Notes: generated by a model from the sequence alone, not told the origin. 64,000 nucleotides of DNA from Moniliella sp. 'wahieum' (GCA_003971905.1 RSEE01000158.1:1-64000); one strand, 5' to 3'; numbered from the stretch's first letter, positions 1 through 29,209 are shown. A program made the numbers and translations.

Positions 1-11
1 AACCCTAACCC
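1..11 (+). repeat. Telomeric repeat seed (CCCTAA)n at the window start
   Basis: AACCCTAACCC is the C-rich strand at the 5' end, as expected for a left telomere. It is absent from the homologous position of copies 2 and 3 (GGTGCGCCGCCGGTTC). Only ~2 units are visible. Confidence 0.6.
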
Positions 12-2642
12 GGGTTCAAGGAGGCGGCCGGACGCATGGGCCGCGGTACCTCGCGCGCCCCTCGGACCACGCCGTGTTCAACCTGCTGGCGCTGCCCAAG
101 TGCGGCCTGCAGGGCGACTCGTCGTCGACCGTGTGTGCGTCGCTGCGTGCCTACCCCGAGGTGCCCTGGCCGCAGGCGGCCAAGCGTCCGACGCGCGAGA
201 TGCGCCGGCGCGATGTGCTGGACAAGGCCCACGCCAAGTGACGCAGGGCATGCTCGGCCGCGCGGTCCGGACGCTGGAAGCGGACCAGGACACGGGTGTC
301 ACTGACCGAGGCGACGTACCAGTCGCTGCAGGACAAGCACCGACCGGCCCGCGCAACCCGATGGCCGGTGTTGTGGTCCGGCAGGTTGCGAGCGCCGCCG
401 CCGACGCTGACCGGCGACGCGATCGAGGACGACGAGGGCCACCTGCTGGAAGATCTCGAGGTTCAAGACAAGGATGTGGACCGTGCTGCTAGCTCTCCCG
501 CGACGTGGGAGGCGGCGTCAGTGGCTGGTCCCAGCCGCTGTGCGGCTCGCGCTCCAGCACGACGACTTCAAGGCGGCGGTCAAGTCGATGGCCACCGCCA
601 TGTAGCGGGCACCTGCCCCGGCGCCCAGCTGCTCTGCACCAGCAGGCTCACGGCTCTTGCCAAGCCGGACGGGGTGTGCGCCCCATTGCCTGTGGGGAGC
701 TCCTACCGGCTCCTGGCCAAGATCCTCCTGCTGCACATCGACGTCCGCTCGCCCTCTTGCGCACCCAGCTGGGTGTCAAGTCCAAGGGCGGCGTGGAGCC
801 GATTGTGCGGCTGCTGGACCGCGTCGTCACCGGAGGCGACCAAGGCAACGGCCCCGCGTGGGAGGACCGGTTCAAGTATGTGACGTCGCTCGACTTAAGA
901 ACGCGTTCAACAGCGTGGACCGACATGTGATGGCGCAGGCCGTCAACGACCACTGCCGCGAGCTGGTGCCCTTCTACCGCTGGGCATACGGACACGGACA
1001 GCACACGCAGCTGGTCGCGGGCGGTGCGGGGAACGTGCGCACGATTGTCAGCCAGCAAGGCGTCCGGCAAGGCGATCCCTTTGGCCCCTTTTTCTTTTCC
1101 GTCGCGATCCGGGACACGCTCGCCGCGGCGCAGCGCGCGCTCGGCGACGCAGGTGTGGTCGTGTCCTACCTGGACGACACCTACCTGCTGTCGCGCGAGC
1201 CAACGCACTGTCGCTCGTGTCGGGCGCCTGAAGCACGGAAAGACGGGGCTGGAGCTCAACGTGGCCAAGACCAGCGTCACCAGCGTGCAAGAGATGCAGG
1301 CCCAGGGTGCCAGGTCCTCGGCTCGTGCATTGGGCCCCGGGACGCCCGCCTGGCCTTTCTGCGGGACAAGATTGCGGACCAAGCCTCCCGCTACCCCGCC
1401 CTGCATGGCCTTGCACTGCAGGACCGGCTGCTGCTCTTGCGGTCGTGCCTGCAGCACAACCTCCGCCACCTGCTGCGCTGCATGCGGACTGACGATCTCG
1501 CGGAGGAGCTGGCGCCGCGAGATTGATGGGCAGCTGTGGCAAGAGGTCAAGGCCATCCGGGGCGCCGACCCGAACGACGTGGAGGGACAACGGTGGGACG
1601 AAGCTCTTCTTTCCCTGCCCGCCCGCAGTGGCGGGCTTGGCTTCTTCTCCCACCTCGACGTTGCCCCACACGCGCGGGGCGGCCTCATGCGAGGAGGCGG
1701 ATGTGTGGGTGGAAAAGGTGATTGCTGGCTGCCGACCGGAGAGAGAGAGAGAGAGAGACGCGCCAGCCGCCACGCGACAGTCGCAGCGGGAACGGACGAC
1801 CGCCATGTTTGCCGACCAACAGGCGAAGCTACTGACCGAGCTGCCGCCCGAGTTGGGCCACCGGCTGCTAGAGAACGCCGAAGCGCTCAACCGGACGTGG
1901 ATGTCGGTGGTGCCCTCGACTCCAGCTTTAAACGCTTCCTGACCACGAGGTCATGGCTGGACTACACCTCCGCACCCTCTGCCGGCACGCCGCCGTCTGC
2001 CGGAACTGCAACGGACCCTGCCCAGATGTGGGGCACCTGCAGTCCTGCAACCGGTGGCGCTCGATTGGCAACTACCGCCATGAGATGCTCCGACGCTGCA
2101 TCGTCAACCTGGCCCGGCACATTCCGGCCACCGAGGTGGAGACCGAGCCCTTCACCCAGCCGCAGCGCCCCGGGCGCTACGACCGCACCGCCAACCGCAC
2201 CGACATCAAGCTGACAGGAACCGGTGCCTCCAAGGGCACCTCGACATGCTACGACCTGACGTTTTGGTCTTTCGGGAACAAGACGCGCGACGCCGACATG
2301 CGCCGCGTCCGCCAGCAACTCGCCGCCACCACGCCGGCGCCCGAGCTGCGCAGGAAGGAGATGGATGTGTTTGTCGAGACCGCCGCCAAGGACAAGCACC
2401 GCAAGTACGACGCGATTACTACAGGTGCTTTTGTGCCCTTGGTCTTTACCGCAGGCGGCTACGCCCACGGCGAGGCCAAGGCTGCTTTGGCGCACTGGAA
2501 GGGGGAGGCGAACGCCGGTGCCTACCGCACGTTCACCGCCCTCTTTTCGTCCTGGCTCTTGCGTTGTGCGGTACAAGGCATGCGAGTCGCCCCTTCCCAC
2601 CGCGCCACCCCACGGATGGCGGGGAGGGGGCGATACTCGTAG
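12..2642 (+). CDS. RT-RLE polyprotein, 5'-truncated; frameshifts probably sequencing indels
   Basis: ORF pieces 657-1526 (RT core) and 1953-2642 (Zn knuckle plus PD-(D/E)xK-type endonuclease); stop TAG ends at 2642. Confidence 0.8.
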
Positions 2643-2710
2643 AGCCCCGCGCGGCGTAAGCCCAGATGGCGTACACCCCATCCTCGGTACTACTCCTGTC
2701 AGAGCGTTTT
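12..2710 (+). mobile_element. CRE-clade (Cnl1/MoTeR/SLACS-like) RLE non-LTR retrotransposon, copy 1, lacking the first ~1.3 kb
   Basis: Near-identical to 4273-6953. RT motifs QQGVRQGDPFGPFFFS and YLDD; C-terminal CRNC-x8-H-x3-C, RHE, RTDIKL, YDLTF, KHRKY, FVPLVFTAGG. Confidence 0.92.
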
Positions 2711-2774
2711 AGGCGCCAGAAAATGCACCCCCGGGATAACTGGCTTGTGGCAGCCAAGCGTTCATAGCGACGTT

Positions 2775-2810
<36 letters not shown>

Positions 2811-2864
2811 GCCGTAGCAAAATTCGGCAAGCGTTGGATTGTTCACCCACCAATAGGGAACGTG

Positions 2865-2902
<38 letters not shown>

Positions 2903-2958
2903 TCCTACCGTAACACGCGAGTCGACAGTAGTTCCGGCGAGTACGAGAGGAACACCGG
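2711..2958 (+). rRNA. 28S/LSU rRNA segment (PTC, H89-H93, sarcin-ricin loop H95), duplicate 1
   Basis: GGGATAACTGGCTTGTGGCAGCCAAGCGTTCATAGCGACG...GATGTCGGCTCTTCCTATCAT...GGGTTTAGACCGTCGTGAGACAGGTTAGTTTTA...AGTACGAGAGGAAC are universal eukaryotic LSU signatures. Confidence 0.95.
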
Positions 2959-5900
2959 CGCCGCTGTGAACCTGTGCTTGACGGAGCTACGGCGCGGGAC
3001 TACGAGACGACGCTACGGACTACGATGCGCGAAGAAGGAAACGTTTTGGTGCTCGCGTGCCGCACTGCGGGCTGTGCTCCCGCTACGGCCATGTGGACGC
3101 TGGTTGCCAGTCGGTGGTGACGACGGGGAAGCTCTGTGGCGTGTGCCACACCCCGGGCCACCGGCGGGACCAGTGCCAGGAGCTGGTTGACCAGTCGATC
3201 AGGCGCATGGCCGAGCAAGCCGGAGCGGAGCCGCACGATGTGGCCTTGGATGCGGCGGCCATTGTGGCCATGCGCCGAGCGACTGGGCATTGCCGCTGCG
3301 CGAGCGGCGTGCCCGTCGGCGCCCCCAGGACCGCCTCCTGGGCCAGGAACCAACAAGCGTGCCCGAAGCCCAGCCCCCTGACCAGCTCGGACGGGGAGGC
3401 AGACGACGACTGGGTGGACCAAGCCGCAGCCGCGCCGCCGCGCCGCTCGGAGCGCAGAGCCGCCGCCAACGCGGCGTTTGCGCGCCAGGCGACGCTCCTG
3501 GCCGCCGCCGCCGCTGTGCCCCTCCCCTCGTCGCCGCGGAGCTCGCCCTTGTCTTCGCCACGGCCGTCCGATGTGTCGACCAGCTCGGCCCCCCCCTCGC
3601 CCGCTCGCCCCGCCGCGGCGCTCCCGCCGGGTGTGGTGTCTGGTGAAGATCTTCTGCGCCGCCCGCCCCAGGTCCGCCCTGGGGCGGATTCCGGCGTGGG
3701 TGATGTCACCGGTGCCGCGCCCGCTGCGGCGCCCACGGGTGATGATAGCTCGGACGATGAGATTGCCCGCCTGCGACTTTTGTCCTCCCACCCCCTCCCC
3801 CCTCACCCCCACCCAAGACGTGCTCGCCACCCCCCCCCCACCTCCCGCCCGTTCATTGACTTTGACCCTCTCGACTTTGCCGCGGCGGCCGCGCGCTGTT
3901 CGCCGAGTCGCCCTCGCCTGCGCCTGACGCTGCTGCCGAGGAGCGTGGGGCCACCGGCGCTGCCCCCGCGGGCAGCGCCGACCCGCGTTTGACGCGCAGT
4001 TCCAGGAGCTGCTGCAGGAGCAGCAGTGCCCGCGCCCGCGGCGCGCCGCACCGTGGCGCCCGTGGCGCCCGCCCGAAGTGACGGCCGGCGACGCCCGCCG
4101 CGCGGCCCGTGCCCAGCTCTCGCCCTCGCCCGCGCCCCCGCCCGTCGACCTGCCCGCCGACCCGACGCTCGTGCCCGGGTGGCGCGACCAGCGCCCGCAC
4201 GCTCAAGAAGCGCTTTGCCTCGCTGGCAGAGTGTGCCGCGCCCTCCTGGCCCGGCAGCACCATGGTGCGCCGCCGGTTCAAGGAGGCGGCCGGACGCATG
4301 GGCCGCGCGTACCTCGCGCGCCCCTCGGACCACGCCGTGTTCAACCTGCTGGCGCTGCCCAAGTGCGGCCTGCAGGGCGACTCGTCGTCGACCGTGTGTG
4401 CGTCGCTGCGTGCCTACCCCGAGGTGCCCTGGCCGCAGGCGGCCAAGCGTCCGACGCGCGAGATGCGCCGGCGCGATGTGCTGGACAAGGCCCACGCCAA
4501 GTGACGCAGGGCATGCTCGGCCGCGCGGTCCGGACGCTGGAAGCGGACCAGGACACGGTGTCACTGACCGAGGCGACGTACCAGTCGCTGCAGGACAAGC
4601 ACCCGACGGCCCAGCGCAACCGATGGCCGGTGTTGTGGTCCGGCAGGTTGCCGAGCGCCCGCCGACGCTGACCGGCGACGCGATCGAGGACGACGAGGGC
4701 CACCTGCTGGAAGATCTCGAGGTTCAAGACAAGGATGTGGACCGTGCTGCTGCTAGCTTCTCCCGCGACGTGGGAGGCGGGTCAGTGGCTGGTCCCAGCC
4801 GCTGCTGCGGCTCGCGCTCCAGCACGACGACTTCAAGGCGGCGGTCAAGTCGATGGCCACCGCCATGTACGCGGGCACCTGCCCCGGCGCCCAGTGCTCT
4901 GCACCAGCAGGCTCACGGCTTGCCAAGCCGGACGGAGGTGTGCGCCCCATTGCCTGTGGGGAGCTCCTCTACCGGCTCCTGGCCAAGATCCTCCTGCTGC
5001 ACATCGACGTCCGCTCCCCTCTTGCGCACCCAGCTGGGTGTCAAGTCCAAGGGCGGCGTGGAGCCGATTGTGCGGCTGCTGGACCGCGTCGTCACCGGAG
5101 GCGACCAAGGCAACGGCCCCGCGTGGGAGGACCGGTTCAAGTATGTGACGTCGCTCGACTTTAAGAACGCGTTCAACAGCGGGACCGACATGTGATGGCG
5201 CAGGCCGTCAACGACCACTGCCGCGAGCTGGTGCCCTTCTACCGCTGGGCATACGGACAGCACACGCAGCTGGTCGCGGGCGGTGCGGGGAACGTGCGCA
5301 CGATTGTCAGCCAGCAAGGCGTCCGGCAAGGCGATCCCTTTGGCCCTTTTTCTTTTCCGTCGCGATCCGGGACACGCTCGCCGCGGCGCAGCGCGCGCTC
5401 GGCGACGCAGGTGTGGTCGTGTCCTAGGACGACACCTACCTGCTGTCGCGCGAGCCCAACGCACTGTCGTCGTGTCGGGCGCCCTGAAGCACGGAAAGAC
5501 GGGGCTGGAGCTCAACGTGGCCAAGACCAGCGTCACCAGCGTGCAAGAGATGCAGGCCCAGGGTGCCAAGGTCCTCGGCTCGTGCATTGGGCCCCGGGAC
5601 GCCCGCCTGGCCTTTCTGCGGGACAAGATTGCGGACCAAGCCTCCCGCTACCCCGCCCTGCATGGCCTTGCACTGCAGGACGGCTGCTGCTCTTGCGGTC
5701 GTGCCTGCAGCACAACCTCCGCCACCTGCTGCGCTGCATGCGGACTGACGATCTCGCGGAGGAGCGCGCGAGATTGATGGGCAGCTGTGGCAAGAGGTCA
5801 AGGCCATCCGGGGCGCCGACCCGAACGACGTGGAGGGACAACGGTGGGACGAAGCTCTTCTTTCCCTGCCCGCCCGCAGTGGCGGGCTTGGCTTCTTCTC

Positions 5901-6953
5901 CCACCTCGACGTTGCTCCCCACGCGCGGGCGGCCTCATGCGAGGAGGCGGATGTGGGGTGGAAAAGGTGATTGCTGGCTGCCGACCGGAGAGAGAGAGAG
6001 AGAGAGACGCGCCAGCCGCCACGCGACAGTCGCAGCGGGAACGGACGACCGCCATGTTTGCCGACCAACAGGCGAAGCTACTGACCGAGCTGCCGCCCGA
6101 GTTGGGCCACCGGCTGCTAGAGAACGCCGAAGCGCTCAACCGGACGTGGATGTCGGTGGTGCCTCGACTCCAGCTTTAACGCTTCCTGACCACGAGGTCA
6201 TGGCTGGACTGCACCTCCGCACCTCTGCCGGCACGCCGCCGTCTGCCGGAACTGCAACGGACCCTGCCCAGATGTGGGGCACCTGCAGTCCTGCAACGGT
6301 GGCGCTCGATTGGCAACTACCGCCATGAGATGCTCCGACGCTGCATCGTCAACCTGGCCCGGCACATTCCGGCCACCGAGGTGGAGACCGAGCCCTTCAC
6401 CCAGCCGCAGCGCCCCGGGCGCTACGACCGCACCGCCAACCGCACCGACATCAAGCTGACAGGAACCGGTGCCTCCAAGGGCACCTCGACATGCTACGAC
6501 CTGACGTTTTGGTCTTTCGGGAACAAGACGCGCGACGCCGACATGCGCCGCGTCCGCCAGCAACTCGCCGCCACACGCCGGCGCCCGAGCTGCGCAGGAA
6601 GGAGATGGATGTGTTTGTCGAGACCGCCGCCAAGGACAAGCACCGCAAGTACGACGCGATTACTACAGGTGCTTTTGTGCCCTTGGTCTTTACCGCAGGC
6701 GGCTACGCCCACGGCGAGGCCAAGGCTGCTTTGGCGCACTGGAAGGGGGAGGCGAACGCCGGTGCCTACCGCACGTTCACCGCCTCTTTTCGTCCTGGCT
6801 CTTGCGTTGTGCGGTACAAGGCATGCGAGTCGCCCTTCCCACCGCGCCACCCCCACGGATGGCGGGGAGGGGGCGATACTCGTAGAGCCCCGCGCGGCGT
6901 AAGCCCAGATGGCGTACACCCCATCCTCGGTACTACTCCTGTCAGAGCGTTTT
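2959..6953 (+). mobile_element. CRE-clade RLE non-LTR retrotransposon, copy 2, full length (~4.0 kb)
   Basis: Bounded on both sides by the same LSU segment. Contains two N-terminal CX2CX4HX4C knuckles, a Pro/Ala/Ser linker, RT and RLE. Confidence 0.93.
3025..6885 (+). CDS. Zn-knuckle/RT/RLE polyprotein (~1280 aa if indels are corrected; start uncertain)
   Basis: CGLCSRYGHVDAGC and CGVCHTPGHRRDQC; LAKPDGGVRPIACGELLYRLLAKILL; SLDFKNAFNS; GVRQGDP; GLELNVAKT; RLE motifs; TAG ends at 6885. Confidence 0.8.
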
Positions 6954-7017
6954 AGGCGCCAGAAAATGCACCCCCGGGATAACTGGCTTGTGGCAGCCAA
7001 GCGTTCATAGCGACGTT

Positions 7018-7052
<35 letters not shown>

Positions 7053-7095
7053 GCCGTAGCAAAATTCGGCAAGCGTTGGATTGTTCACCACCAAT

Positions 7096-7142
<47 letters not shown>

Positions 7143-7196
7143 TCCTACCGTAACACGCGAGTCGACAGTAGTTCCGGCGAGTACGAGGAACACCGG
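6954..7196 (+). rRNA. 28S/LSU rRNA segment (PTC to sarcin-ricin loop), duplicate 2
   Basis: Same as 2711-2958 apart from small indels, with identical junctions on both sides. Confidence 0.95.
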
Positions 7197-10100
7197 CGCC
7201 GCCTGTGAACCTGTGCTTGACGGAGCTACGGCGCGGGACTACGAGACGACGCTACGGACTACGATGCGCGAAGAAGGAAACGTTTTGGTGCCTCGCGTGC
7301 CGCACGGGCTGTGCTCCGCTACGGCCATGTGGACGCTGGTTGCCAGTCGGTGGTGACGACGGGGAAGCTCTGTGGCGTGTGCCACACCCGGGCCACCGGC
7401 GGGACCAGTGCCAGGAGCTGGTTGACCAGTCGATCAGGGATGGCCGAGCAAGCCGGAGCGGAGCCGCACGATGTGGCCTTGGATGCGGCGGCCATTGTGG
7501 CCCATGCGCCCGAGCGATGGGCATTGCCGCTGCGCGAGCGGCGTGCCCGTCGGCGCCCCCAGGACCGCCTCCTGGGCCAGGAACCAACAAGCGTGCCCGA
7601 AGCCCCAGCCCCCTGACCAGCTCGGACGGGGAGGCAGACGACGACTGGGTGGACCAAGCCGCAGCCGCGCCGCCGCGCCGCTCGGAGCGCAGAGCCGCCG
7701 CCAACGCGGCGTTTGCGCGCCAGGCGACGCTCCTGGCCGCCGCCGCTGTGCCCCTCCCCTCGTCGCCGCGGAGCTCGCCCTTGTCTTCGCCACGGCCGTC
7801 CGATGTGTCGACAGCTCGGCCCCCCCTCGCCCGCTCGCCCCGCCGCGGCGCTCCCGCCGGGTGTGGTGTCTGGTGAAGATCTTCTGCGCCGCCCGCCCCA
7901 GGTCCGCCCTGGGGCGGATTCCGGCGTGGGTGATGTCACCGGTGCCGCGCCCGCTGCGGCGCCCACGGGTGATGATAGCTCGGACGATGAGATTGCCCCG
8001 CCTGCGACTTTTGTCCTCCCCACCCCTCCCCCCCTCACCCCCACCCAAGACGTGCTCGCCACCCCCCCCCACCTCCCCGCCGTTCATTGACTTTGACCCT
8101 CTCGACTTTGCCGCGGCGGCCGCGCGCCTGTTCGCCGAGTCGCCTCGCCTGCGCCTGACGCTGCTGCCGAGGAGCGTGGGGCCACCGGCGCTGCCCCCGC
8201 GGGCAGCGCCGACCCGCGTTTGACGCGCAGTTCCAGGAGCTGCTGCAGGAGCAGCACGTGCCCGCGCCCGCGGCGCGCCGCACCCGTGGCGCCCGTGGCG
8301 CCCGCCCGCACGTGCCGGCCGGCGCGCCCCCGCCGCGCGGCCGTGCCCAGCTCTCGCCCTCGCCCGCGCCCCCGCCCGTCGACCTGCCCGCCGACCCGAC
8401 GCTCGTGCCCGGTGGCGCGACCAGCGCCCGCACGCTCAAGAAGCGCTTTGCCTCGCTGGCAGAGTGTGCCGCGCCCTCCTGGCCCGGCAGCACCATGGTG
8501 CGCCGCCGGTTCAAGGAGGCGGCCGGACGCATGGGCCGCGCGTACCTCGCGCGCCCCTCGGACCACGCCGTGTTCAACCTGCTGGCGCTGCCCAAGTGCG
8601 GCTGCAGGGCGACTCGTCGTCGACCGTGTGTGCGTCGCTGCGTGCCTACCCGAGGTGCCCTGGCCGCAGGCGGCCAAGCGTCCGACGCGCGAGATGCGCC
8701 GGCGCGATGTGCTGGACAAGGCCCACCGCCAAGTGACGCAGGGCATGCTCGGCCGCGCGGTCCGGACGCTGGAAGCGGACCAGGACACGGTGTCACTGAC
8801 CGAGGCGACGTACCAGTCGCTGCAGGACAAGCACCCGACCGGCCCGCGCAACCCGATGGCCGGTGTTGTGGTCCGGCAGGTTGCCGAGCGCCGCCGCGAC
8901 GCTGACCGGCGACGCGATCGAGGACGACGAGGGCCACCTGCTGGAAGATCTCGAGGTTCAAGACAAGGATGTGGACCGTGCTGCTGCTAGCTTCTCCGCG
9001 ACGTGGGAGGCGGCGTCAGTGGCTGGTCCCAGCCGCTGCTGCGGCTCGCGCTCCAGCACGACGACTTCAAGGCGGCGGTCAAGTCGATGGCCACCGCCAT
9101 GTACGCGGGCACCTGCCCCGGCGCCCAGCTGCTCTGCACCAGCAGGCTCACGGCTTGCCAAGCCGGACGGAGGTGTGCGCCCCATTGCCTGTGGGGAGCT
9201 CCTCTACCGGCTCCTGGCCAAGATCCTCCTGCTGCACATCGACGTCCGCTCGCCCCTCTTGCGCACCCAGCTGGGTGTCAAGTCCAAGGGCGGCGTGGAG
9301 CCGATTGTGCGGCTGCTGGACCGCGTCGTCACCGGAGGCGACCAAGGCAACGGCCCCGCGTGGGAGGACCGGTTCAAGTATGTGACGTCGCTCGACTTTA
9401 AGAACGCGTTCAACAGCGTGGACCGACATGTGATGGCGCAGGCCGTCAACGACCACTGCCGCGAGCTGGTGCCCTTCTACCGCTGGGCATACGGACAGCA
9501 CACGCAGCTGGTCGCGGGCGGTGCGGGGAACGTGCGCACGATTGTCAGCCAGCAAGGCGTCCGGCAAGGCGATCCCTTTGGCCCCTTTTTCTTTTCCGTC
9601 GCGATCCGGGACACGCTCGCCGCGGCGCAGCGCGCGCTCGGCGACGCAGGTGTGGTCGTGTCCTACCTGGACGACACCTACCTGCTGTCGGCGGAGCCCA
9701 ACGCACGTCGCTCGTGTCGGGGCCCTGAAGCACGGAAAGACGGGGCTGGAGCTCAACGTGGCCAAGACCAGCGTCACCAGCGTGCAAGAGATGCAGGCCC
9801 AGGGTGCCAAGGTCCTCGGCTCGTGCATTGGGCCCCGGGACGCCCGCCTGGCCTTTCTGCGGGACAAGATTGCGGACCAAGCCTCCCGCTACCCCGCCCT
9901 GCATGGCCTTGCACTGCAGGACCGGCTGTGCTCTTGCGGTCGTGCCTGCAGCACAACCTCCGCCACTGCGCGCTGCATGCGGACTGACGATCTGCGGAGG
10001 AGCTGCGCGAGATTGATGGGCAGCTGTGGCAAGAGGTCAAGGCCATCCGGGGCGCGACCCGAACGACGTGGAGGGACAACGGTGGGACGAAGCTCTTCTT

Positions 10101-11181
10101 CCCTGCCCGCCGCAGTGGCGGGCTTGGCTTTCTCCCACCTCGACGTGCTCCCCACGCGCGGGCGGCCTCATGCGAGGAGGCGGATGTGTGGGTGGAAAAG
10201 GTGATTGCTGGCTGCCGACCGGAGGAGAGAGAGAGAGAGAGACGCGCCAGCCGCACGCGACAGTCGCAGCGGGAACGGACGACCGCCATGTTTGCGACCA
10301 ACAGGCGAAGCTACTGACCGAGCTGCCGCCCGAGTTGGGCCACCGGCTGCTAGAGAACGCCGAAGCGCTCAACGGACGTGGATGTCGGTGGTGCCCTCGA
10401 CTCCAGCTTTAACGCTTCCTGACCACGAGGTCATGGCTGGACTACACCTCCGCACCCTCTGCCGGCACGCCGCCGTCTGCCGGAACTGCAACGGACCTGC
10501 CCAGATGTGGGGCACCTGCAGTCCTGCAACCGGTGGCGCTCGATTGGCAACTACCGCCATGAGATGCTCCGACGCTGCATCGTCAACCTGGCCCGGCACA
10601 TTCCGGCCACCGAGGTGGAGACCGAGCCCTTCACCCAGCCGCAGCGCCCCGGGCGCTACGACCGCACCGCCAACCGCACCGACATCAAGCTGACAGGAAC
10701 CGGTGCCTCCAAGGGCACCTCGACATGCTACGACCTGACGTTTTGGTCTTTCGGGAACAAGACGCGCGACGCCGACATGCGCCGCGTCCGCCAGCAACTC
10801 GCCGCCACCACGCCGGCGCCCGAGCTGCGCAGGAAGGAGAGGATGTGTTTGTCGAGACCGCCGCCAAGGACAAGCACCGCAAGTACGACGCGATTACTAC
10901 AGGTGCTTTTGTGCCCTTGGTCTTTACCGCAGGCGGCTACGCCCACGGCGAGGCCAAGGCTGCTTTGGCGCACTGGAAGGGGGAGGCGAACGCCGGTGCC
11001 TACCGCACGTTCACCGCCCTCTTTCGTCCTGGCTCTTGCGTTGTGCGGTACAAGGCATGCGAGTCGCCCCTTCCCACCGCGCCACCCCACGGATGGGGGG
11101 AGGGGGCGATACTCGTAGAGCCCGCGCGGCGTAAGCCAGATGGCGTACACCCCACTCGGACTACTCCTGTCAGAGCGTTTT
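7197..11181 (+). mobile_element. CRE-clade RLE non-LTR retrotransposon, copy 3, full length
   Basis: Near-identical to copy 2. ORF 8863-9987 holds an uninterrupted RT core (LAKPDGGVRPIACGE...LDFKNAFNSVDR...QGVRQGDPFGP...YLDD). Confidence 0.93.
7264..11118 (+). CDS. Zn-knuckle/RT/RLE polyprotein, copy 3 (apparent indel frameshifts)
   Basis: ORF pieces 7205-7876, 8863-9987, 10507-11118 and 10725-11183 carry the same motifs as copy 2. Confidence 0.8.
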
Positions 11182-11323
11182 AGGCGCCAGAAAATGCACC
11201 CCGGGATAACTGGCTTGTGGCAGCCAAGCGTTCATAGCGACGTTGCTTTTTGATCCTCGATGTCGGCTCTTCCTATCATGCCGTAGCAAAATTCGGCAAG
11301 CGTTGGATTGTTCACCCACCAAT

Positions 11324-11370
<47 letters not shown>

Positions 11371-11740
11371 TCCTACCGTAACACGCGAGTCGACAGTAGT
11401 TCCGGCGAGTACGAGAGGAACACCGGGGCCGGGCCTCCAGTGAGCACCTGTCCGACCGGGCAGAGGTGCGCAGCCGCGCCCGCCGAGTAAACACCTGAAC
11501 GCTCTAAGGTGGAACTCGTGCTAGTACGCTCGCATGTGGCTGGACTGGGTACCAATAGGCGCAAGCCGTACACCACGGGGGGGTCTCTGGGGGGGCGACG
11601 CCCCACCACACGCCCCACAATATACACATGAAGCACACTGCAAATCCCCCGCATACGACGGGGCATGGTCCGAGCGCCGTACGCCGTAGAGTGGGCTTGT
11701 TCCCACGATCGGCTGAAGCCCATCTCGGCACCTCTGATTC
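11182..11740 (+). rRNA. 3' portion of the 28S/LSU rRNA gene (PTC, SRL at 11408-11421, domain VI to the 3' terminus)
   Basis: Beyond the SRL it continues with CTGAACGC-TCTAAG, GCATACGAC, GTAGAGTGGGCTTGTTCCCACGATC and terminal CTGATT, colinear with the recalled fungal 25S 3' end. Stems are preserved by compensatory changes. Confidence 0.92.
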
Positions 11741-12156
11741 CCCCCCCCCTCGGGAGGGGGTTCCTGACCAAGTCCCAACCCTACCCCCGAAAAAATATGG
11801 AAAAATAGCGCGCTGCGGCGCAAGAAAGAACGAAAAGAGGGAAAGAAAAGAGGGAAGACTGCGTGAGCGGCGCCGGACGCTCTATCAGGTTTGAGCCATA
11901 CCCTTTACTTGCCCCGTTTTCCCCCCCGTTTTACCCGCTGCGAGCACCCCCAAAACCCTACTGACCACCGCTCGCTCCACTGCGGCGAGTATCCCCTGGG
12001 GGTGTCGCTAGGGGGCTCCCTAGGGTTCTCCCTAGGGTTTCCCTTGTGGATTCTCCCTCCTCCTCCTTGTACTCTCCTACTGGGCTAGCCCCAGTAGGGT
12101 TGCCCCTTGTCAATATACGCCCCCCCCCACCATACCCCCCTCCAAACACCCTGTGT
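11741..12156. other. rDNA 3'ETS / intergenic spacer IGS1
   Basis: Lies between the LSU 3' end and 5S. Contains C/G homopolymer tracts, a C-run/G-run hairpin right after the LSU end, and several AACCCTA/TAGGGTT motifs. Confidence 0.8.
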
Positions 12157-12273
12157 ATCCGCGGCCATAGAACTGTGAAAGCACCGCATCCCGTCCGATC
12201 TGCGAAGTAACCACAGTATCGCCCAGTCAGTACTACGGTGGGGGACCACGTGGGAATCCTCGGTGCCGCGGTT
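12157..12273 (+). rRNA. 5S rRNA gene, same strand as the LSU
   Basis: ATCCGCGGCCATAGAACTGTGAAAGCACCGCATCCCGTCCGATCTGCGAAGT...AGTACTACGGTGGGGGACCACGTGGGAATCCTCGGTGCCGCGGTT; 117 nt with pairing ends; basidiomycete-type 5S. Confidence 0.97.
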
Positions 12274-12274
12274 C

Positions 12275-12279
12275 TTTTT
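12275..12279 (+). terminator. Pol III terminator (T5) of the 5S gene
   Basis: TTTTT immediately after the 5S 3' end. Confidence 0.85.
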
Positions 12280-13920: not shown

Positions 13921-13948
13921 CCTGGCGAAGCTCCTTCCCAGTGAAAAG

Positions 13949-18560: not shown

Positions 18561-20730
18561 CCAATTTTCTTGGTGTGGATGTCGATGCTTGTACGTGGTC
18601 GTTGTGCTTCTATTGTAGCCCAAGTTGTGACATCTATCATTAGCCAAGCGCAGCATCGGAGGCAATCGGGCCGGACGCATGCAGCCCTTCAACTCGTCAC
18701 GTCAACGCCCCACAGCCAGTCGTTCAAAGTGCGAATTGAGACGCACGCCGACACGGCACTGCCCTGTTTGGTTATCGGCGCTGCACCACAAGCCAAGCCA
18801 GTCCGGATTCGCACTCCCCGCGGTTCCGCCGACAAGGAAGGCCCTCAAGTTGCTATCGAGGAGCAAGTGCTGTTCGCTGCTGTCTGTTATGCGGGGCCGG
18901 TACAGACGTGGAGAACGGGTGCAGGGAGCGAGCGGCCACCGCGGGCTGCCTTTTGCACAGTCACAGCACTTCGAAAGAAGATGGGGTCGGCGGCGACAGG
19001 CTTGTCTGCTGCCAGAGAACGCGTTTGCTGACCGAGCAGGCCGGTCTAGCCGCAGTTCCATCCCTTCACCGTGCACGAGACCCGGTCTGTCGTTGCCATA
19101 AGGAGGGATGAAGGGCGCCGCATCTCGAACCCCTGAAGAGGATGCAGATGGTCTGGTTAGCGTCAATGAACCTCGCTCTCGGTAGTAGAATATTGATGAT
19201 TGATGAGACGATTGGCTCGCCGCGCTTGCCGATGGGGTGGGCTGTCGACCCCGGAACCCGAGCCGTGTCGGAGTGAATCCTCAGCCCGCTCTTCTGTTTG
19301 CCACTCCCTCATCATTCACCATTCAGCTTCCCCCTCCCCCCACCCTCGGCCCCTCCGGTGGCGTAGGAGATACACCCTTTGTCCTGGTGCTGTAAACGCG
19401 ACGGTCGTCCTGGAATTGTCTCGTTCTGCTTGGCCGGCAAGAATCGGTCCCCCCCCCGAGCGCGTTGCGGGTCATAACGAAGAGATGCAAGCGATGGGTA
19501 TACCAGCCTGTTAACCTGGTCCACCTTCGTGGCCTCCATGCCATTTTCGACCGAAGTGGATCTAAGCTGTCTTGTGCTTGCTTGTACATTACGTGTACAT
19601 CTAAGGTACATCATCTTGGGGAACTCGTTGCTGGCACTGCGTCCTGGGAGACCCAAGCATGTCCATTCATTCCTTGCGACTGCCCGGCATATATCGCACC
19701 GATCCCACCACACAGACGCCTCGGAACCCCACCGCCCAAGGAACATCACTCGCCACCAAACGGGTGTGGGTGACTGCAATGTTGGGGACTGATTCTGCTA
19801 TTCTTCCAGTGGGCAGCGCAGCTTCGGTCGCGCCAAAAGCGTGTGTGGCAGTGCGCTCGTCCTCTGTACTCGGAGCAGGAGACGACAACGTTTGGGCCCA
19901 TATTCGCTGTTCGGCAACGATTCTGACATGTGCGTGGCGTTGGTTGGGCTAAGGACGCGGCCGGTGTGCGAGCTGCAGAGCAGGGTAGCACCGGTGCCAA
20001 CACCAAAGGTACTCCTGGTGGGGTTGACGAATACGAAGGCTAGCAACGCTCCATTCGCCGAAGAGCCAGACCCCTACCGCCTAAGAGCGTCGATGGCTAG
20101 CAATAAGCGCCTTCCTTGCATGAGCATGCCAATAGCCTCTCAGTGCTTCATCCCATGCCGCCCCATTCCTTGCGCCAACTACGAATATCCTTGTCGGCTT
20201 GCCTGTCATGACGTATGGCAATGCCACTATCGTTATTGTTCGCCTTGGGGCCCTGGTACTGTGTGAGTGCGGTGCTGTACACCTTGTCCATGCCGTGATA
20301 ATGTGGCGCGATGTCGCCGCCGTTACCAACGATAGGATTAGCTGCTACCGGTACGGGCGGTTTCACTGCAACATTGTTGTGCACATTCGTTTCGACGAAG
20401 CTTGCTGGCTCGCATTGTGGTAATAGTACGTTTGCCCCCGCTCTCTTGTCCTCTCTTGCGATGCGAGTTACTGACAACCGACGCAGCCCAAACTCAGCAC
20501 CAGTAGTAATTGGAACGAACATGCTTGTCCAAAGAAACTGGCTGTATCAATGCCTCTTTTCCACAGCATCCGACGCGTACGCGGTAAACGTGTAGCGCTG
20601 CTCTGTGGGACGATGAGCAGTGCCCTCGCCAGTCAACTGCGTGCACTGCTCTCCCCTATGTTGTACGGAAGGCGCAGGGGCTTTGGGCAGCAAGGGACGT
20701 GCGAAGCCAGTGTCGGACGAGCGCCACCCG

Positions 20731-23700
20731 CCCGCTTCAGCAGCTGTGCGCCAGGCCTGCATGGTAGCGAATGTGTCTGGCACAACCGGCGGGCACCTTG
20801 CCGCCGTCGGCAACGCTCCCTGCTGCAGTGCAAGTCTACAGGGCTGCTACGGCGGCAGCGGACAGCGAGCAGCCCCGCAAGCAGCAGCAATCGACTGCCT
20901 CTCCGCGAGACGCGCAGAAAGGGCTGTTCCGTCGTGGGGTTAATGTTAAACGTGCGTTTGCCGCCGCGCTTGGCGCGCAGAAGTCCTCCACATTGGCCGC
21001 GGCCACACCGCCCAAGCCCCCTCCCCGATCTGGCCGGCTGCGTTTAAGATCGCTTTGCCTCTCCACGACCAACCCGCTGGGACTCTATGTAGGGCTCATG
21101 TCCTTGCTTCCTTCTCGCGCTGCGCACCAAGCCGGATGCATGCTCACGGGGGCCCACGCCCCTCGGCTCCGCTTTTTGCTGTCCATCCTGTCGATGCAGT
21201 GCCTGAACTGGCATCGAGAGCGCGGTTGCGTTACCGAGCTCGGCATGATGCGCAGCGGTGGAATGCAAATCAACCTGGAGGCGATCCACCCGTGGGATGC
21301 GTATCTTGATGGTGGTGATTCCTGTACGTGTCCATCTCCTTCTGCTGAAACCTAAGTTGCTGACGTTTCACCTTAGCTGGACGCAGCACTAGAAGCAATA
21401 TTGCTCACAAGCAACCATTAACTTGTCACGTCAACGTCCCCCAGCCAGTTGGGCAAGGCGCCAATACCGGGAGTATTGGCAAAGGCAGGGCACGCCTTCC
21501 GCCCCTGCGGATGCGCCGGCAGCAAAGACCTCTACGGCTGGCGAAGAGCAGAAGCTGCTCGCTGCTGCTGCGTTGGGGAATGGGCGCGTAGAACAGGTCC
21601 GGGGGGGGGGCGTGGCTGCTCTTCACTACCCTCGTTGGACCCCTGAAGAGGATGGAGACGGGGTGGGTAGTGTCAATGAGCCTCACTCTCGATTGGATAC
21701 TGATCGTGGATGTAACTGCCTCGCGGGACGCGTTTATTGATCAGGTGGACTGGGGCCAACCACTTAACCGAGCTATGCCAAAGTGAATCCTCCACCTCGT
21801 CCTTTTGTTCGCCTCTCGCAGCAGGGCTGTGCCCCATTGCGCTCCCTTTTTTCCCCTCCCGAAGTCGTGCCCCCACGCCTCCGCTGCCCGCACAGACCGG
21901 CCAGGTCCTCACCCAGTATGGCTGGGTGTTCTTTAATAGGAACCCGCCTTGATCTCCACCCAAAACTGATCGAAAATGGGCCGAACTCTCGGCTGGTCCA
22001 GCAGAAGGCCCAAGCTCTTCTCAGTCACATCGCGGCGGAGACCGCCGCACCGACCTTCACGATACGCAATCCCTTCCACACGGCGAACATTCCTCTCACC
22101 TCAAGCTTGCTGCTGCCGACAGTCAGCGCCTTTCATACCAAAGCCAAAAACGATGATCCGCGCGGCCCTACCCACTACGGGGTCATGATTCTCTCTATGG
22201 TTTAACATGTACGACGACGACCCCTACCCACACTTCCTCTGGTATGATGTATGACGACGCGCTTGTGCAGGCCCGAACGTACAAGCACAGGTGTGCTGAC
22301 GGAGATGGATCATGAAGAGTGTCCGAGAACTAACGCAAGGACATGGATCAAACCGCTGCCCGCTTTTCATTTATGTGGAAGATCTTAGCGGTTCTTTTGG
22401 AAGCTGCCAAGTGATATGCTTCCAGGCTCCGCCTCTTCTTGGGGCCACTATCCTACTGCTCATATTAGAGCACTCTCTCCCCCCTCTCCCAGATGGGAAT
22501 CAAGTCCAAGGGAGAGTGGGGCACATTGTGCGTAGGCTAGACATTCTGTCACAGAAAGCGATCGAGGCAAAGGGCCCAAGCAAGAAAAGGTTCCAAAACG
22601 CAGCGTACAAGAGGCGCAAACGCAACGTGCCAAGATCATGGGCTTCTGCATTGGGACTAGTATCACCTGACTGACGTTCTTGCGGGCCAAGAATGTGGAT
22701 CAAAACCGCTCGCTACCCTGCCTGAAATCCCTCCCGTTGCCCCACCGGTTGTTCATTTTGCGGTTCGTGCTTGCAGCAGCCCCTCCGCCATCTGTTTCAC
22801 TCGAGGCGGAGAAACGAATCTGGCAAGGGCCAAACTCCCGTGGGTAGGTGAGCAGCAATAGCACGAGGCAAGTCATCCGGGGCGACGATCGGGCAATGTT
22901 GTCGGTCAATGGTAGGACCAAGTTATGCCCGTCACTTTGGGCAGATCACTCCTGCTCTCTCCTCTTGACTTTGCTCCACCAGCCAACGCATTGACTTGGG
23001 CAGCGAGGCGAACGTACGGGTGGACCAGGTGATCGGCAGCCAACCAGAGGGGCCCGAGCCTGCTCCTCGTCCTGGCACAAGAAAAAAGACCACGGTTTTG
23101 CTCGCCCGTCAGCATACGAAGCTGCTGCTCCTGTGACTACATCGTTGGGCCTGGCTGATTGAGAAAGCAGAAGTGCTCGATCGGAGCTGGAGGTCGGTGG
23201 TGCCCTCCAAACCAGCGTTCGCTTTTCCTGGCCACGGGATCATGGCTGGGTACGGGACATTCCGGCCACTATGGTAAAGCCCGACGACCGATCCAACAAT
23301 CCGGAGCGAATTGGACGCTCCCACGCCACTGTCACCGTCGCTGAGGTCACGATTGCAAACGCAGGTACTCCAAAGAGCCCATCCATATCGAACAGCCTAA
23401 CCCTTTGGTCCTTCGGAGACAAGACGCGCGACGCCTATCCTACGTCGTTTCTGCCATCGGCTCGCCTCCGTCCCTCCGGCACACGCGCTGTGCAAGGAGA
23501 TGAACGCCTTGTTCGACACGGAGGCCAAAGCAAGGCACCAACGTACAATCCTTGTGCAACGGGTGACTAGCTCTGTTCCCTTGGTCTTCGCTGCGGGTGA
23601 CTACGCCTATTATTAGTCCAGGCTGCTTTGGCGTACTCCAAGTGGAGAGCAAGCTTCGGTTGCCATTGCGCATTCATCTTGCCGCTCGTGCGAGCTAAGG

Positions 23701-24260
23701 TATAAGGATCACCCCATCCAAATGCACCACTCCTTTAACACATGGATCAAGGGGCTTTTACTTGATTTCCCCGCCGACCACATTGCCAAACCACAGCCTA
23801 GGAGGCGGACTATGCATTCGCGGTGCTTTGGCTGCCCAAAAATGCAAGACGAGCAAGATGTGTATCCGCAGAACGTTCTGGACTGCGTGCGCTACTTTAG
23901 CTACGAAAGTGTCCAGTGCACTCTTGAATGGAGATGAAGCGGGCAATACAAAACTTGTTCCTTCTCCACGTTTCTACCGCCACCTTCTCCTCCGCCTTGC
24001 CCGCCGTCTGGAGGTCGTGGCGAATCATGTGGTCCCCTTCCGTGATGCGCGTGAACTAGGCCGGTGGGAACTAGCGTAACACCAACAGCTCAGGGCGCAC
24101 GCGCTACGCCAGGCAGTCGGTGCCGGCTGTGCTCAGCCCAGTCAGGCAGCCGAAGCGGACCACCCCAGCAGTTCCGATTCGGATCCATTCGAGTGGTGGA
24201 GTGCGCTGTGCTCACTCCGCTGGGCAGCGCAATGGTGCGGCGTCGGTTCAAACGAGGCGG
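20731..24260 (+). repeat. Segmental duplication copy A (paralog ~25008-29260; older partial copies ~16740-17230 and ~19100-19760)
   Basis: Colinear matches from GCTTCAGCAGCTGTGCGCCAGG through GGAATGCAAATCAACCTGGAGGCG and TGGACCCCT.AA.AGGATGGAGA to TCGTGGCGAATCATGTGG. Confidence 0.85.
22260..23735 (+). mobile_element. Heavily decayed RT-RLE relic of the CRE-like family
   Basis: CAAGTCCAAGGG (KSKG), TGGTCCTTCGGAGACAAGACGCGCGACGCC (WSFGDKTRDA), GTTCCCTTGGTCTTC (VPLVF); many stops and deletions. Confidence 0.8.
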
Positions 24261-24935
24261 CCGGTCGGTTGGGAAGAGCGTATTTAGATCATCCCGACGA
24301 TGACGCCGTGTTCAACCTGCTTGCCCTGCCGAATGCGGGCTTGCGGGGGGGCTCTTCGCCGCCGCGTTTGTGCCACCCTCAGGGCCTATCCGGAGGTGGC
24401 GTGGCCGCCAGCTATGGAGAAGGGCTCTGCAGAGCGCCAGCGTTCCGATGATTTGACCCGTGCACACCGCCAGGTCAAAGAGGGCATGCTGGGACGTGCG
24501 GCGCGTACGTTGCGTCCCCAGGATGCGGCGGTGGGGTTTGGGCCGGAAACGGTTGAGGCCCTGCGCGCGAAGCACTCTGCATGCCCGAAGAAACCCGCTG
24601 GCTGGTTGGTGGTTCGGCAAATGTCGGAGCGGGTCCCGCCTGGTTTAACGGGCGACACCGCAGCGGCGGACGCCGGCGAGCCCCCAATGGTTTTGGAGTT
24701 GGATGATAAGGGCATCTATCGCGCGGCAAGCAGCTTCTCCCGGGACGTGGGGGGAGGCGTGGGCGGATGGTCGGTGCCTCTTCTCCAGTTGGCTCTAAAG
24801 CACGATGACTTTAGAGCGGCTCTCAAATCCATGGCGTGTGCATGTTTCATGGGACGTGCCCGGGTGCTCAGCTGTTGTGCACCAGTAGGCTGACGGCACT
24901 TGCGAAGCCTGACGGTGGAGTGAGACCGATTGCCG
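24190..24935 (+). mobile_element. CRE-like relic, pre-RT to RT N-terminus
   Basis: MVRRRFK, RAYLDHPDDDAVFNLLALP, GMLGRAARTL, FSRDVGGGVGGWSVPLLQLALKHDDF, CTSRLTALAKPDGGVRPIA; protein-level similarity to the young copies with diverged DNA. Confidence 0.88.
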
Positions 24936-26544
24936 GTGCCTTCCGCACCTCACTCTGTCGCGCCGACCTCCATCTCTACGAAAGAAGATGGTGGTCGGCG
25001 CCACACGCCTGCTTCAGCAGCTGTGCGCCAGGTCTGCGTTCCAGCGAGCCGTGCCTGGCCACACGGCGAGTGCCTTGCCACCGTCAAGAGTGCACCCTGC
25101 TGCTGTGCAAGTCCGGAGGGCTACTGCTCATGACAGGGAAGGGGAGCTTGGTTGTGATATTTCGTGGCCGCAGCGATGAACGGTAGCAGCCCAAGTAGCA
25201 GCAATCGACTGCCTCTCCGCGAGACTCCCCGAAAGCGCTGCTCCCGTCCCGAGGTTACGTGCGTTTGCCGCCTCGCTTGGCGAGCACACGCAGTCGCAGT
25301 TCCTCCACATTGGCCGCCGCCACAGGGCTCAGTCTTAGCCCGCGCCGATTCTGGTCTGGCCTCGTCTGGGACAGCGTTTGCCTCTCTACCACCAACACGC
25401 TGGGGCTCTGCTACGCCTCGTATCCTTGCTGTCTCTAAGCTGCGCACCAACCCGGATGCGTGCTCACGAGAGGGCACGCTCCTCGGCTCCGCTTTTTGCT
25501 GTCCGTCCTTGTTCATGCAGCACCCGAACTAGCATCGAGAGGGTGGCTGGGTTCCCGAGGTTGACACGATGCGCAGTGGCGGAATGCAAATCAACCTGGA
25601 GGCGGCCCACCCATGGGGTGCCGCAACTTTGATGGTGGTGATGCCTGTACGCGTTTATGTACCCTTCTTCTAGAACCCCAGTTGCTGACATTTCACATTA
25701 GCTCGCCGCAACTCCAGAGGCACTGTGCGCCCACTCAAGCAGTCTTTATCTCGTCGCATCCACGTCCCCCCAACACATTGTGCAAGGCGCCAATTCAGGC
25801 AATATTGGCAAGGGCAGGGCACGCTTCCCGCTCCCTGCGGATACGCCGGGAGGGAGGCCTCTACGGCTGGCGAAGAGCAGATGCTACTCCATACTGCTCT
25901 GCTGTGCGGGACGGGTGCCCATAACAGGGCCCAGAACAGGTCCGGGGGGGCGCGGCTCTTCTTCATCCCCTCGATGGACCCCTAAAAAGGATGGAGATGG
26001 TGTTGGTGAGCCTCACTCTCGATTGGATATAACTGCCTCGCCCACCTAACCCGAGCTATGCCGAAGTGAATCCTCCACCTCGCCCTTTTTGTTCGCCGCT
26101 CGTAGCAGGGCTGTGGCCCCATTGCGCCTCCCTTTGTTCTCCCTTCCCCAATTCGCAGCCCGCACGTCTCCGCTGCCCCACAGATCGGCCAGATCCTCTC
26201 CCACCAGAGTGGCTGGGTGTTCCTCAACATGGAAACCGCATTGATCCCCACCCAAGACTTATCGAATGGGCCCGGCCTGGTTCCAGCAGCAGGCCCAAAC
26301 TCTTCTCACACGCACTCCCGGCGCAGACCGCAAAGACCTCCATGATGCACAATCTCTTCCACACGGCGAACGCGTTCCTCTCCTCAAGCTTGCTGCCGCC
26401 GACCGTCAGCGCCTTTCATACTAAAGACGAAACAATCATCCACACGGCCCTATTCAATACCGGGGTCATGATTATTTCTACTGTTTTACATGTACGACGA
26501 CGATCCCCACCCACACTTCCTCTGGTATGATATACTGACCGACG

Positions 26545-28871: not shown

Positions 28872-28906
28872 GGTCACCGGTCACCGGTCACCGGTCACCG
28901 GTCACT
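28872..28906. repeat. Heptamer tandem repeat (GGTCACC)x5
   Basis: Directly visible; the last unit is GGTCACT. Confidence 0.9.
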
Positions 28907-29209
28907 GGAGCAGGATTGATTGCTCGATTGAATCTTGAAACGATCCTGTGGCGGGTGAACCAACAAGCCGCTGGCGCCTCCTGACACGGCCCAAGCTGAA
29001 CTGATTCCTTCTCCATCTTTCCACCACCTCCTTCTCATCCGCCTTGCCCACCGCCTGGAGATCGTGGCGAATCATGTGGCCTGCCGTGGGCGCGTGCTCG
29101 CGGCCGGTGGGAACTCGCGTAACCACCGACAGCCGCTACGCCAGGCAGTCGGGGCTCAGCCCAAACTTGCCACACGAAGCGGACAACCTAGCAGTCCGAT
29201 TCAGGCCCA

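What the first reader, a model, noticed from the sequence alone, without database searches (positions are those of the whole stretch)
12..12273. Fungal CRE-clade retrotransposon that appears to target 28S rDNA at the peptidyl-transferase centre
Seen: three head-to-tail RT+RLE elements whose 3' ends join the LSU at the same point (...GAGCGTTTT|AGGCGCCAGAAAA; 2711, 6954, 11182). The LSU then continues after copy 3 to its 3' end, IGS1 and a 5S gene, so this is a genuine rDNA unit. Known: the RT motifs are CRE-type; CRE relatives target SL-RNA genes (SLACS, CZAR, CRE1) or telomeric/subtelomeric regions (MoTeR, Cnl1). The rDNA-specific non-LTR elements I know (R1, R2, R4, R9, RT) are animal and from other clades. 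Inference: an independently evolved, compact rDNA-specific element in a basidiomycete, with a site distinct from R2's. Copies differ almost only by indels, suggesting recent activity.
Basis: partly seen in the sequence, partly recalled or inferred. Interest (0 to 1): 0.93.

Follow-up and report, generated by a model that had tools for sequence, protein, structure and literature searches.

The report
Chromosome-end retrotransposon array on rDNA stump
Three nearly identical copies of a Cnl1/MoTeR-like retrotransposon sit head to tail at a telomere-capped chromosome end of a basidiomycete, each joined at the same point to a piece of the large ribosomal RNA gene, which may mean a first fungal rDNA-targeting element but could also be one accidental junction that was later amplified.

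Summary
The sequence observation holds. The junction GAGCGTTTT|AGGCGCCAGAAAA occurs exactly three times. After copy 3 the LSU runs to its 3' end, followed by IGS and 5S.

Three things change the picture:

1. This is not a full rDNA unit. No SSU or 5' LSU lies anywhere in the 64 kb. Only about 250 bp of LSU, from the PTC region to the sarcin-ricin helix, separates the copies.
2. The window begins with a telomere repeat (AACCCTAACCC) fused directly to 5'-truncated copy 1. The array is therefore at a chromosome end.
3. The relatives are telomere elements. The RT groups with Tilletia and Cryptococcus neoformans (probably Cnl1) proteins. Of 80 metagenomic relatives, 9 are flanked by sense (CCCTAA)n and 0 by LSU.

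The copies are essentially identical. Their indel differences look like assembly errors.

The layout, with the 5' end at LSU T+250 and the 3' end at T, is what a fixed LSU insertion with a roughly 250-bp target-site duplication would produce. It could equally come from one junction amplified by unequal exchange or break-induced replication. I put LSU targeting at about 0.45 and the amplified single junction at about 0.40. No genome or reads were available to decide between them.

The parts
1..11 (+). Telomere repeat (C-strand, AACCCTAACCC) capping the array
   Evidence: Read directly. It is the only CCCTAACC in the window. It has the same sense orientation as the (CCCTAA)n flanks of relatives.
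12..2710 (+). Copy E1, 5'-truncated (starts at the position equivalent to unit base 1565); RT and RLE present
   Evidence: blastn 97.8% to unit 2. RLE motif at 1998-2255. The homology-supported frame stops at 2640-2642, leaving a 68-nt 3' UTR.
2711..2963 (+). LSU piece 1 (about 250 bp, from T = AGGCGCCAGAAAA to just past the sarcin-ricin loop)
   Evidence: Alignment to the LSU after copy 3 (253 nt, 98.4%). Rfam LSU alignment, model positions about 2803-3050.
2964..6953 (+). Copy E2, full length about 3.99 kb. ATG at 3025, out of frame with the knuckles as assembled. Two CCHC knuckles at 3066-3176, a Pro/Ala-rich region, then RT and RLE.
6954..7203 (+). LSU piece 2 (same extent as piece 1)
7204..11181 (+). 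Copy E3, full length; RT ORF piece at 8863-9987
11182..11740 (+). LSU rRNA 3' part, from site T to the 3' end of the gene
   Evidence: Rfam RF02543: 11191-11370 and 11383-11740, reaching model position 3399 of 3401
11741..12156 (+). IGS1, with telo-box-like heptamers
12157..12274 (+). 5S rRNA gene
   Evidence: Rfam RF00001, 103 bits, model 1-120
20721..29520 (+). Older, degenerate head-to-tail array of a related element (65-89% nt identity to E over the short matching pieces; period about 4.28 kb), same orientation, with no LSU between copies
   Evidence: blastn. No Rfam match at E<=1 across 12275-31000. The inter-copy region is not similar to the LSU piece or to E's 5' region beyond shuffled controls.

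Best explanation
What it is (high confidence): a terminal head-to-tail array of a single-ORF non-LTR retrotransposon. The ORF has N-terminal CCHC knuckles, an RT and a C-terminal restriction-like endonuclease. The element belongs to the fungal Cnl1/MoTeR-like lineage. The array sits on an orphan rDNA stump (LSU 3' 559 bp, IGS, 5S) at a telomere-capped chromosome end of a basidiomycete.

How it most likely arose (inferred, about 0.45; the confidence value given refers to this part): the element has switched from telomere repeats to a fixed LSU site T. T lies just 5' of AGGCGCCAGAAAA, about 24 nt upstream of the GGGATAAC of the peptidyl-transferase loop.
1. The endonuclease nicks the bottom strand at T and primes reverse transcription there.
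2. The top strand is cut about 250 bp downstream, just 3' of the sarcin-ricin helix.
3. Each insertion therefore carries a target-site duplication of about 250 bp: LSU(..T+250)-E-LSU(T..).
4. Re-insertion into the intact upstream T, or unequal exchange between the two 250-bp repeats, then builds E-250-E-250-E.
5. The distal copy was later broken, or its cDNA was left incomplete, and telomerase healed the end.

The short 5' leader (about 60 nt) and the sense orientation would allow co-transcription with rRNA, as in R2.

Shown: the junctions, the layout, the domains, the telomere cap and the relatives. Inferred: nicking at T, the duplication, and the target switch.
For: - The 3' junction is exact in all three copies and the 5' junction is the same in both full-length copies.
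- Having the 5' flank at T+250 and the 3' flank at T is the signature of a long target-site duplication. By recall, R9 makes 126 bp and SLACS 49 bp; of the R9 paper I saw only its title in reference lists.
- Both breakpoints lie in the most conserved LSU segments, and the element is in sense orientation.
- E's last 68 nt carry no telomere-like motif. Three intact relatives end in ACCCCCTAACCCCTA-like motifs (L003, L006, L014), and in the 9 of 80 loci with sense (CCCTAA)n the repeats flank the element, at the 3' end in most. This fits a changed target.
- The N-terminal nucleic-acid-binding module differs. E has two CCHC knuckles, whereas the 5 of 9 relatives' N-termini that show a zinc-finger-like pattern, Tilletia's among them, are C2H2-like (read by eye).
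- Apart from indel noise the copies are identical. Frameshifts fall at different places in different copies, so the underlying ORF is probably intact and the element young.
Against: - All junctions lie in one tandem array, so they may represent a single event copied at the DNA level.
- No LSU upstream of T is present anywhere in the window. The predicted left end of a duplication, LSU(..T+250), is therefore never seen in an otherwise complete gene.
- 0 of 80 metagenomic relatives have the LSU segment (blastn), and 0 of the 20 relatives scanned have any Rfam family.
- The clade is telomere-associated.
- The array has the position, orientation and telomere-capped truncated distal copy typical of CNL1/MoTeR terminal arrays (papers).
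- An older array of the same family 8-17 kb inward has no LSU.
- No ribozyme family was detected at the 5' junction.
- The CCHC knuckles are not supported by Pfam (E=1.1).
Confidence: 0.45

Rival explanations
1. One accidental junction, amplified. E is an ordinary telomere or chromosome-end element of the Cnl1/MoTeR kind. A terminal rDNA array was truncated within the LSU, and E was added once to the broken end, either by end-primed reverse transcription or by insertion followed by deletion. The de-protected end then invaded the sister chromatid at T+250 by microhomology (CCGG/GCC) and copied outward. This created the E-250-E unit, which unequal exchange expanded. On this reading LSU is not a preferred target.
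For: - Telomere cap on a truncated distal copy.
- Relatives are telomere-flanked (9 of 80) and never LSU-flanked (0 of 80).
- rDNA telomeres, rDNA truncation with de novo telomere addition, a MoTeR1 inserted one repeat away from rDNA, and BIR-type duplications are all documented in M. oryzae (PMC7367193, passages read).
- The older array in the same subtelomere shares internal rearrangements between its copies, so it grew by DNA-level duplication.
- E copies and LSU pieces are identical apart from noise.
Against: - It needs three unlinked events.
- There is no telomere repeat at the E-LSU junction.
- It leaves unexplained E's missing telomere-like 3' end and its different N-terminal module.
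- The full-length 5' end lying about 60 nt before the ATG would have to coincide with the erosion point.
Confidence: 0.4
2. Read-through tail. The 250-bp LSU segment is part of the mobile RNA. A progenitor at T was transcribed into the LSU and processed near the sarcin-ricin helix. Copies carrying this tail are then added end to end at the chromosome terminus, much like HeT-A.
For: Units abut without any other spacer. The 5'-to-telomere orientation fits end addition. Relatives carry read-through-like telomere motifs at their 3' ends.
Against: It requires the same RNA 3' end and a full-length 5' end in both events, and it still needs an original insertion at T. By sequence alone it cannot be told apart from a target-site duplication within this window.
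Confidence: 0.1
3. Assembly artefact. The copy number, or the telomere join, comes from a noisy long-read contig end.
For: The indel error rate across the first 12 kb is high, including at universally conserved LSU positions.
Against: Both junction types recur with the same sequence, and a collapse or expansion cannot create them. An 11-nt telomere match placed exactly at the truncation point is unlikely by chance.
Confidence: 0.05

Closest known systems
Cnl1 (Cryptococcus) and MoTeR1/FoTeR (Magnaporthe, Fusarium) telomere-associated RLE retrotransposons
   Same: - Single ORF with an RT and a C-terminal CCHC + RH(D/N/E)..E..(R/K)xD..D/E endonuclease (pattern quoted in PMC12857005).
- RT core 50% identical to C. 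neoformans proteins.
- Head-to-tail terminal arrays, 3' ends facing the centromere, truncated distal copy capped by telomere repeats (PMC12810828, PMC7367193).
   Different: - No telomere repeats at the 3' end or between copies; a 250-bp LSU segment lies there instead.
- N-terminus has CCHC knuckles rather than C2H2 fingers, and the region upstream of the RT is about 230 aa longer.
R2 / R9 (animal 28S-specific RLE elements)
   Same: - RLE single-ORF architecture, sense orientation in the LSU, very short 5' leader.
- The closest solved structures are R2 proteins (E about 1e-5 to the Tilletia relative).
- R9 makes an unusually long (126-bp) target duplication (recalled; only the paper's title was seen, in reference lists).
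   Different: - Different lineage.
- Different site: by recall, R2 inserts several hundred nt upstream in the TAAGGTAGC region.
- No ribozyme detected.
- The duplication would be about twice R9's.
- Fungal host.
SLACS/CZAR/CRE1-2 (trypanosomatid spliced-leader-specific CRE elements)
   Same: Same RLE motif class. By recall, SLACS makes a long (49-bp) target duplication. FoTeR authors place Cnl1 and MoTeR in the same clade.
   Different: Different target and host.

Membership tests
RLE-bearing non-LTR retrotransposon (R2/CRE supergroup) | Reverse transcriptase domain | tested here: met
   Pfam RVT_1, E=1.7e-11, at 8863-9987. 4807 library hits, the best about 50% identical.
RLE-bearing non-LTR retrotransposon (R2/CRE supergroup) | C-terminal CCHC + PD-(D/E)xK-type endonuclease motif | tested here: met
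   A regex built on the published pattern matches E1 at 1998-2255. Indels break it in E2 and E3.
CRE clade / Cnl1-MoTeR lineage | RT phylogeny with named members (CRE1, SLACS, MoTeR1, Cnl1) | tested here: inconclusive
   E groups with Tilletia and lies in one clade with C. neoformans proteins (quick trees, SH-aLRT 90-96). That the C. neoformans proteins are CNL1 is inferred. No named CRE, SLACS or MoTeR sequence was available.
CRE clade / Cnl1-MoTeR lineage | Telomere-repeat target: (CCCTAA)n at the 3' flank and a telomere-like 3' end | tested here: not met
   The 3' flank is LSU in all 3 copies. The last 68 nt carry no telomere-like motif, unlike L003, L006 and L014.
rDNA-specific retrotransposon (R-element-like) | Same junction in several independent insertions | tested here: inconclusive
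   There are 3 identical 3' junctions and 2 identical 5' junctions, but all lie in one tandem array of identical copies.
rDNA-specific retrotransposon (R-element-like) | Insertions lie in otherwise complete rDNA units | tested here: not met
   The 64-kb window holds no LSU upstream of T, no 5.8S and no SSU.
rDNA-specific retrotransposon (R-element-like) | Copies absent from, or rare in, non-rDNA sites genome-wide | not testable with these tools
R2 | Insertion at the canonical R2 site of 28S | tested here: not met
   The junction maps to Rfam LSU model position about 2803 (GUGUCAGAAAAG), next to GGGAUAAC. The location of the R2 site is recalled, not computed.

The most novel reading that the evidence does not exclude
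This would be a first fungal rDNA-specific non-LTR retrotransposon. A Cnl1/MoTeR-lineage element would have switched from telomere repeats to a fixed site in domain V of the large-subunit rRNA gene. It would make a target-site duplication of about 250 bp, spanning the peptidyl-transferase loop to the sarcin-ricin helix. That would be the longest known for target-primed reverse transcription. Its insertions in a telomere-adjacent rDNA would also drive chromosome-end breakage and healing.
Probability: 0.4. Interest if true: 0.8.

Novelty: new variant of a known kind. Interest (0 to 1): 0.55.

Why it matters
If LSU targeting is real, 28S targeting has evolved independently outside animals, from a telomere-targeting ancestor. 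That would give a natural example of target reprogramming in an RLE retrotransposon, here associated with a swapped N-terminal module. It would also add a new safe-harbour-type site and an extreme case of staggered second-strand cleavage.

If it is not real, the locus is still a clear example of how telomere-associated retrotransposons and terminal rDNA remnants rebuild a fungal chromosome end. That, however, is known biology.

Tried and rejected
- Whole-genome search for other copies: no genome is held for this window.
- Rfam at E<=1 over 1-12400: no ribozyme or other RNA family beyond LSU and 5S. The three weak 5_ureB matches, at the same place in each copy, are treated as noise.
- Rfam read LSU as extending 68 nt upstream of T. 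This is a low-identity stretch that requires a 180-nt deletion in the alignment, so I rejected it as spurious.
- The apparent similarity of the old copies' 3' flank to the first 17 nt of the LSU piece did not hold up. Local alignments of the old inter-copy region to the LSU piece and to E's 5' region scored at or near the level of shuffled controls, within 1.3 SD and below the shuffles' maxima.
- Viral-contig scan with the RT alignment: 96 pattern matches, none a relative.
- A three-copy majority consensus, built and used only inside scripts, still carried at least 3 frameshifts. The errors fall close together in different copies. It was used only to place E in the tree.
- The 'careful' tree did not finish within the time limit, so the quick tree is reported.
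- Literature searches for a fungal 28S-specific RLE/CRE element and Table 1 of review PMC10946416 (its fungal entries are Hideaway, Ty1 and Nosema MITEs) found none. Repbase/Dfam and the supplements of the Fell et al. inventory mentioned in PMC13580325 were not seen and could hold one.
- The exact insertion sites of RT, R5, R6, R9 and the planarian LIN 28S families were not checked against T.
Full report
**Observation**

GAGCGTTTTAGGCGCCAGAAAA occurs three times without mismatch, and none of 100 shuffles gave a match. These junctions define repeat units of 4243 and 4228 bp. Rfam finds LSU rRNA from the third junction to the 3' end of the gene (11191-11740, reaching model position 3399 of 3401). 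It also finds a full 5S gene at 12157-12274.

The element encodes an RT. Pfam RVT_1 matched with E=1.7e-11 in 1 of 10 ORF pieces tested; the other 9 gave nothing, because the frames are broken. It also encodes a C-terminal restriction-like endonuclease. The motif CxxC-x8-H-x3-C-x9-RHE...E...RTD...D is intact in copy 1 at 1998-2255. It follows the pattern quoted for MoTeR/SLACS/CRE in PMC12857005 (passages read).

1. The LSU between copies is only about 250 bp long. It runs from site T (AGGCGCCAGAAAA, about 24 nt before the GGGATAAC of the peptidyl-transferase loop) to ...GAGTACGAGAGGAACACCGG, just past the sarcin-ricin loop. The 5' end of the next element follows directly.
2. The 64-kb window holds no SSU, no 5.8S and no LSU upstream of T. 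The rDNA is an orphan stump of 559 bp of LSU, IGS1 and 5S, not a complete unit.
3. The window starts with AACCCTAACCC, a C-strand telomere repeat. It is fused directly to copy 1, which lacks its first 1.3 kb or so. It is the only CCCTAACC in the window.
4. An older, degenerate head-to-tail array of a related element lies at about 20.7-29.5 kb in the same orientation.
   - Its period is about 4.28 kb; its copies are 70-76% identical to each other and 65-89% identical to E over short matching pieces.
   - It has no rRNA remnant at E<=1.
   - The region between its copies shows no similarity to the LSU piece beyond shuffled controls.

**State of the copies**

I compared the 2.7 kb shared by all three copies. 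There are 81 indel columns and 23 apparent substitutions, and 22 of the 23 lie within 7 columns of an indel. The three LSU pieces differ by 6 indel events and 0 substitutions, some at universally conserved positions. Frameshifts fall at different places in different copies.

I read this as three essentially identical copies, probably with an intact ORF, seen through a noisy long-read contig end. It is not real divergence by indels.

The ATG at 3025 lies about 60 nt from the 5' junction. It is out of frame with what follows in the assembled sequence. Two CCHC knuckles follow at 3066-3176. Pfam does not support the knuckles (E=1.1).

**Relatives**

The RT piece finds 4807 library proteins, the best about 40-50% identical.

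- The only named close hits are from Tilletia and Cryptococcus neoformans (50% identity over the RT core). I infer that the latter are CNL1.
- ALG10 in the window has only basidiomycete best hits at 30-50% identity, and a Zn2Cys6 gene is present. The host is a basidiomycete with no close relative in the databases.
- In a 104-row quick tree the window copies fall in a starred 37-row clade. That clade also holds Tilletia, C. neoformans and the telomere-flanked loci L001, L004, L006 and L009. Eight rows with under 170 filled columns, and copy 1, were left out.
- In a 53-row tree E is sister to Tilletia P0152 + P0006 (SH-aLRT 91). This is the quick result, because the careful search did not finish. 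E was represented by a consensus built only inside the script.

Of 80 metagenome loci encoding relatives:

- 9 carry (CCCTAA)n>=2, always in sense orientation, and 0 carry it in antisense.
- 0 of 80 contain the LSU segment.
- 0 of the 20 scanned with Rfam have any RNA family.
- The intact relatives L003, L006 and L014 end in telomere-like ACCCCCTAACCCCTA motifs. E's 68-nt 3' UTR has none.
- Five of the nine relatives' N-termini printed, Tilletia's among them, show C2H2-like patterns, read by eye. E has CCHC knuckles.

The closest solved structures are R2 proteins (E about 1e-5 to the Tilletia relative).

**Interpretation**

The layout has a 5' flank at T+250 and a 3' flank at T. That is exactly what a staggered cut with a 250-bp target-site duplication would leave. 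Re-insertion into the intact upstream T, or unequal exchange between the two 250-bp repeats, would then yield the observed E-250-E-250-E array.

Several things favour a real switch to an LSU target:

- both breakpoints lie in ultra-conserved LSU sequence;
- the element is in sense orientation;
- the telomere-like 3' end has been lost;
- the N-terminal module is different.

Against this, all junctions lie in one array of identical copies, so there may have been only one independent event. The array also looks like a CNL1/MoTeR terminal array in every other respect (PMC12810828 and PMC7367193, passages read). The M. oryzae work documents telomeric rDNA, rDNA truncation with de novo telomere addition, a truncated MoTeR1 one repeat away from the rDNA, and BIR-type end duplications. 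A single E-LSU junction amplified by microhomology-mediated BIR and unequal exchange is therefore a serious rival.

A read-through 'LSU tail' model cannot be separated from the duplication model using this window alone.

My odds are:

| Explanation | Probability |
|---|---|
| LSU targeting with a long target-site duplication | about 0.45 |
| Amplified single junction | about 0.40 |
| Read-through tail | about 0.10 |
| Assembly artefact | about 0.05 |

**Novelty**

I found no fungal 28S-specific RLE element in the held literature (searches; Table 1 of PMC10946416). Repbase, Dfam and the supplements of a recent RLE inventory were not available to me. The sites of RT, R5, R6, R9 and the LIN families were not compared with T.

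As it stands, this is a new variant of the Cnl1/MoTeR kind. Whether it is the first fungal rDNA-specific retrotransposon depends on genome-wide flanks, which could not be obtained here.

Noticed in passing
window 1-11: C-strand telomere repeat AACCCTAACCC at the very start of the window, fused to the truncated copy 1. The window therefore starts at or near a chromosome end.
   Followed up: yes
window 20721-29520: Older degenerate tandem array of a related RT/RLE element. Its copies share an insertion of about 1.8 kb and several deletions relative to E, so it grew by DNA-level duplication or by trans-mobilisation of a defective copy. No LSU lies between its copies.
   Followed up: partly
window 11777-12760: The rDNA spacer around 5S holds 4 of the window's 9 AACCCTA heptamers and 3 of its 6 TAGGGTT heptamers, including CCCTAGGGTT palindromes. 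These may be telo-box-type protein-binding sites rather than telomere remnants.
   Followed up: no
window 1739-1758 and the equivalent places in copies 2 and 3: A (GA)n microsatellite of about 20 nt lies inside the element, between the RT and endonuclease regions.
   Followed up: no
window 1-12000: Indel errors of about 1% per copy, including in universally conserved LSU positions (for example a 2-nt gap in the sarcin-ricin loop of LSU piece 2). The contig end looks unpolished.
   Followed up: partly
L006 3300-4619; L015 4128-4193; L013 1-183 and 4095-4139: Metagenomic relatives form element / short telomere tract / element arrays. Their 3' ends abut CCCTAA after a terminal A (for example ...TTAAA|CCCTAA and ...TTACCA|CCCTAA).
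   Followed up: partly
window 40096-41259 and 56207-57541: An ALG10/DIE2-like glucosyltransferase ORF that covers only half of the Pfam profile (intron or frameshift), and a Zn2Cys6 transcription-factor ORF. Both are ordinary fungal genes 28-45 kb from the end.
   Followed up: partly
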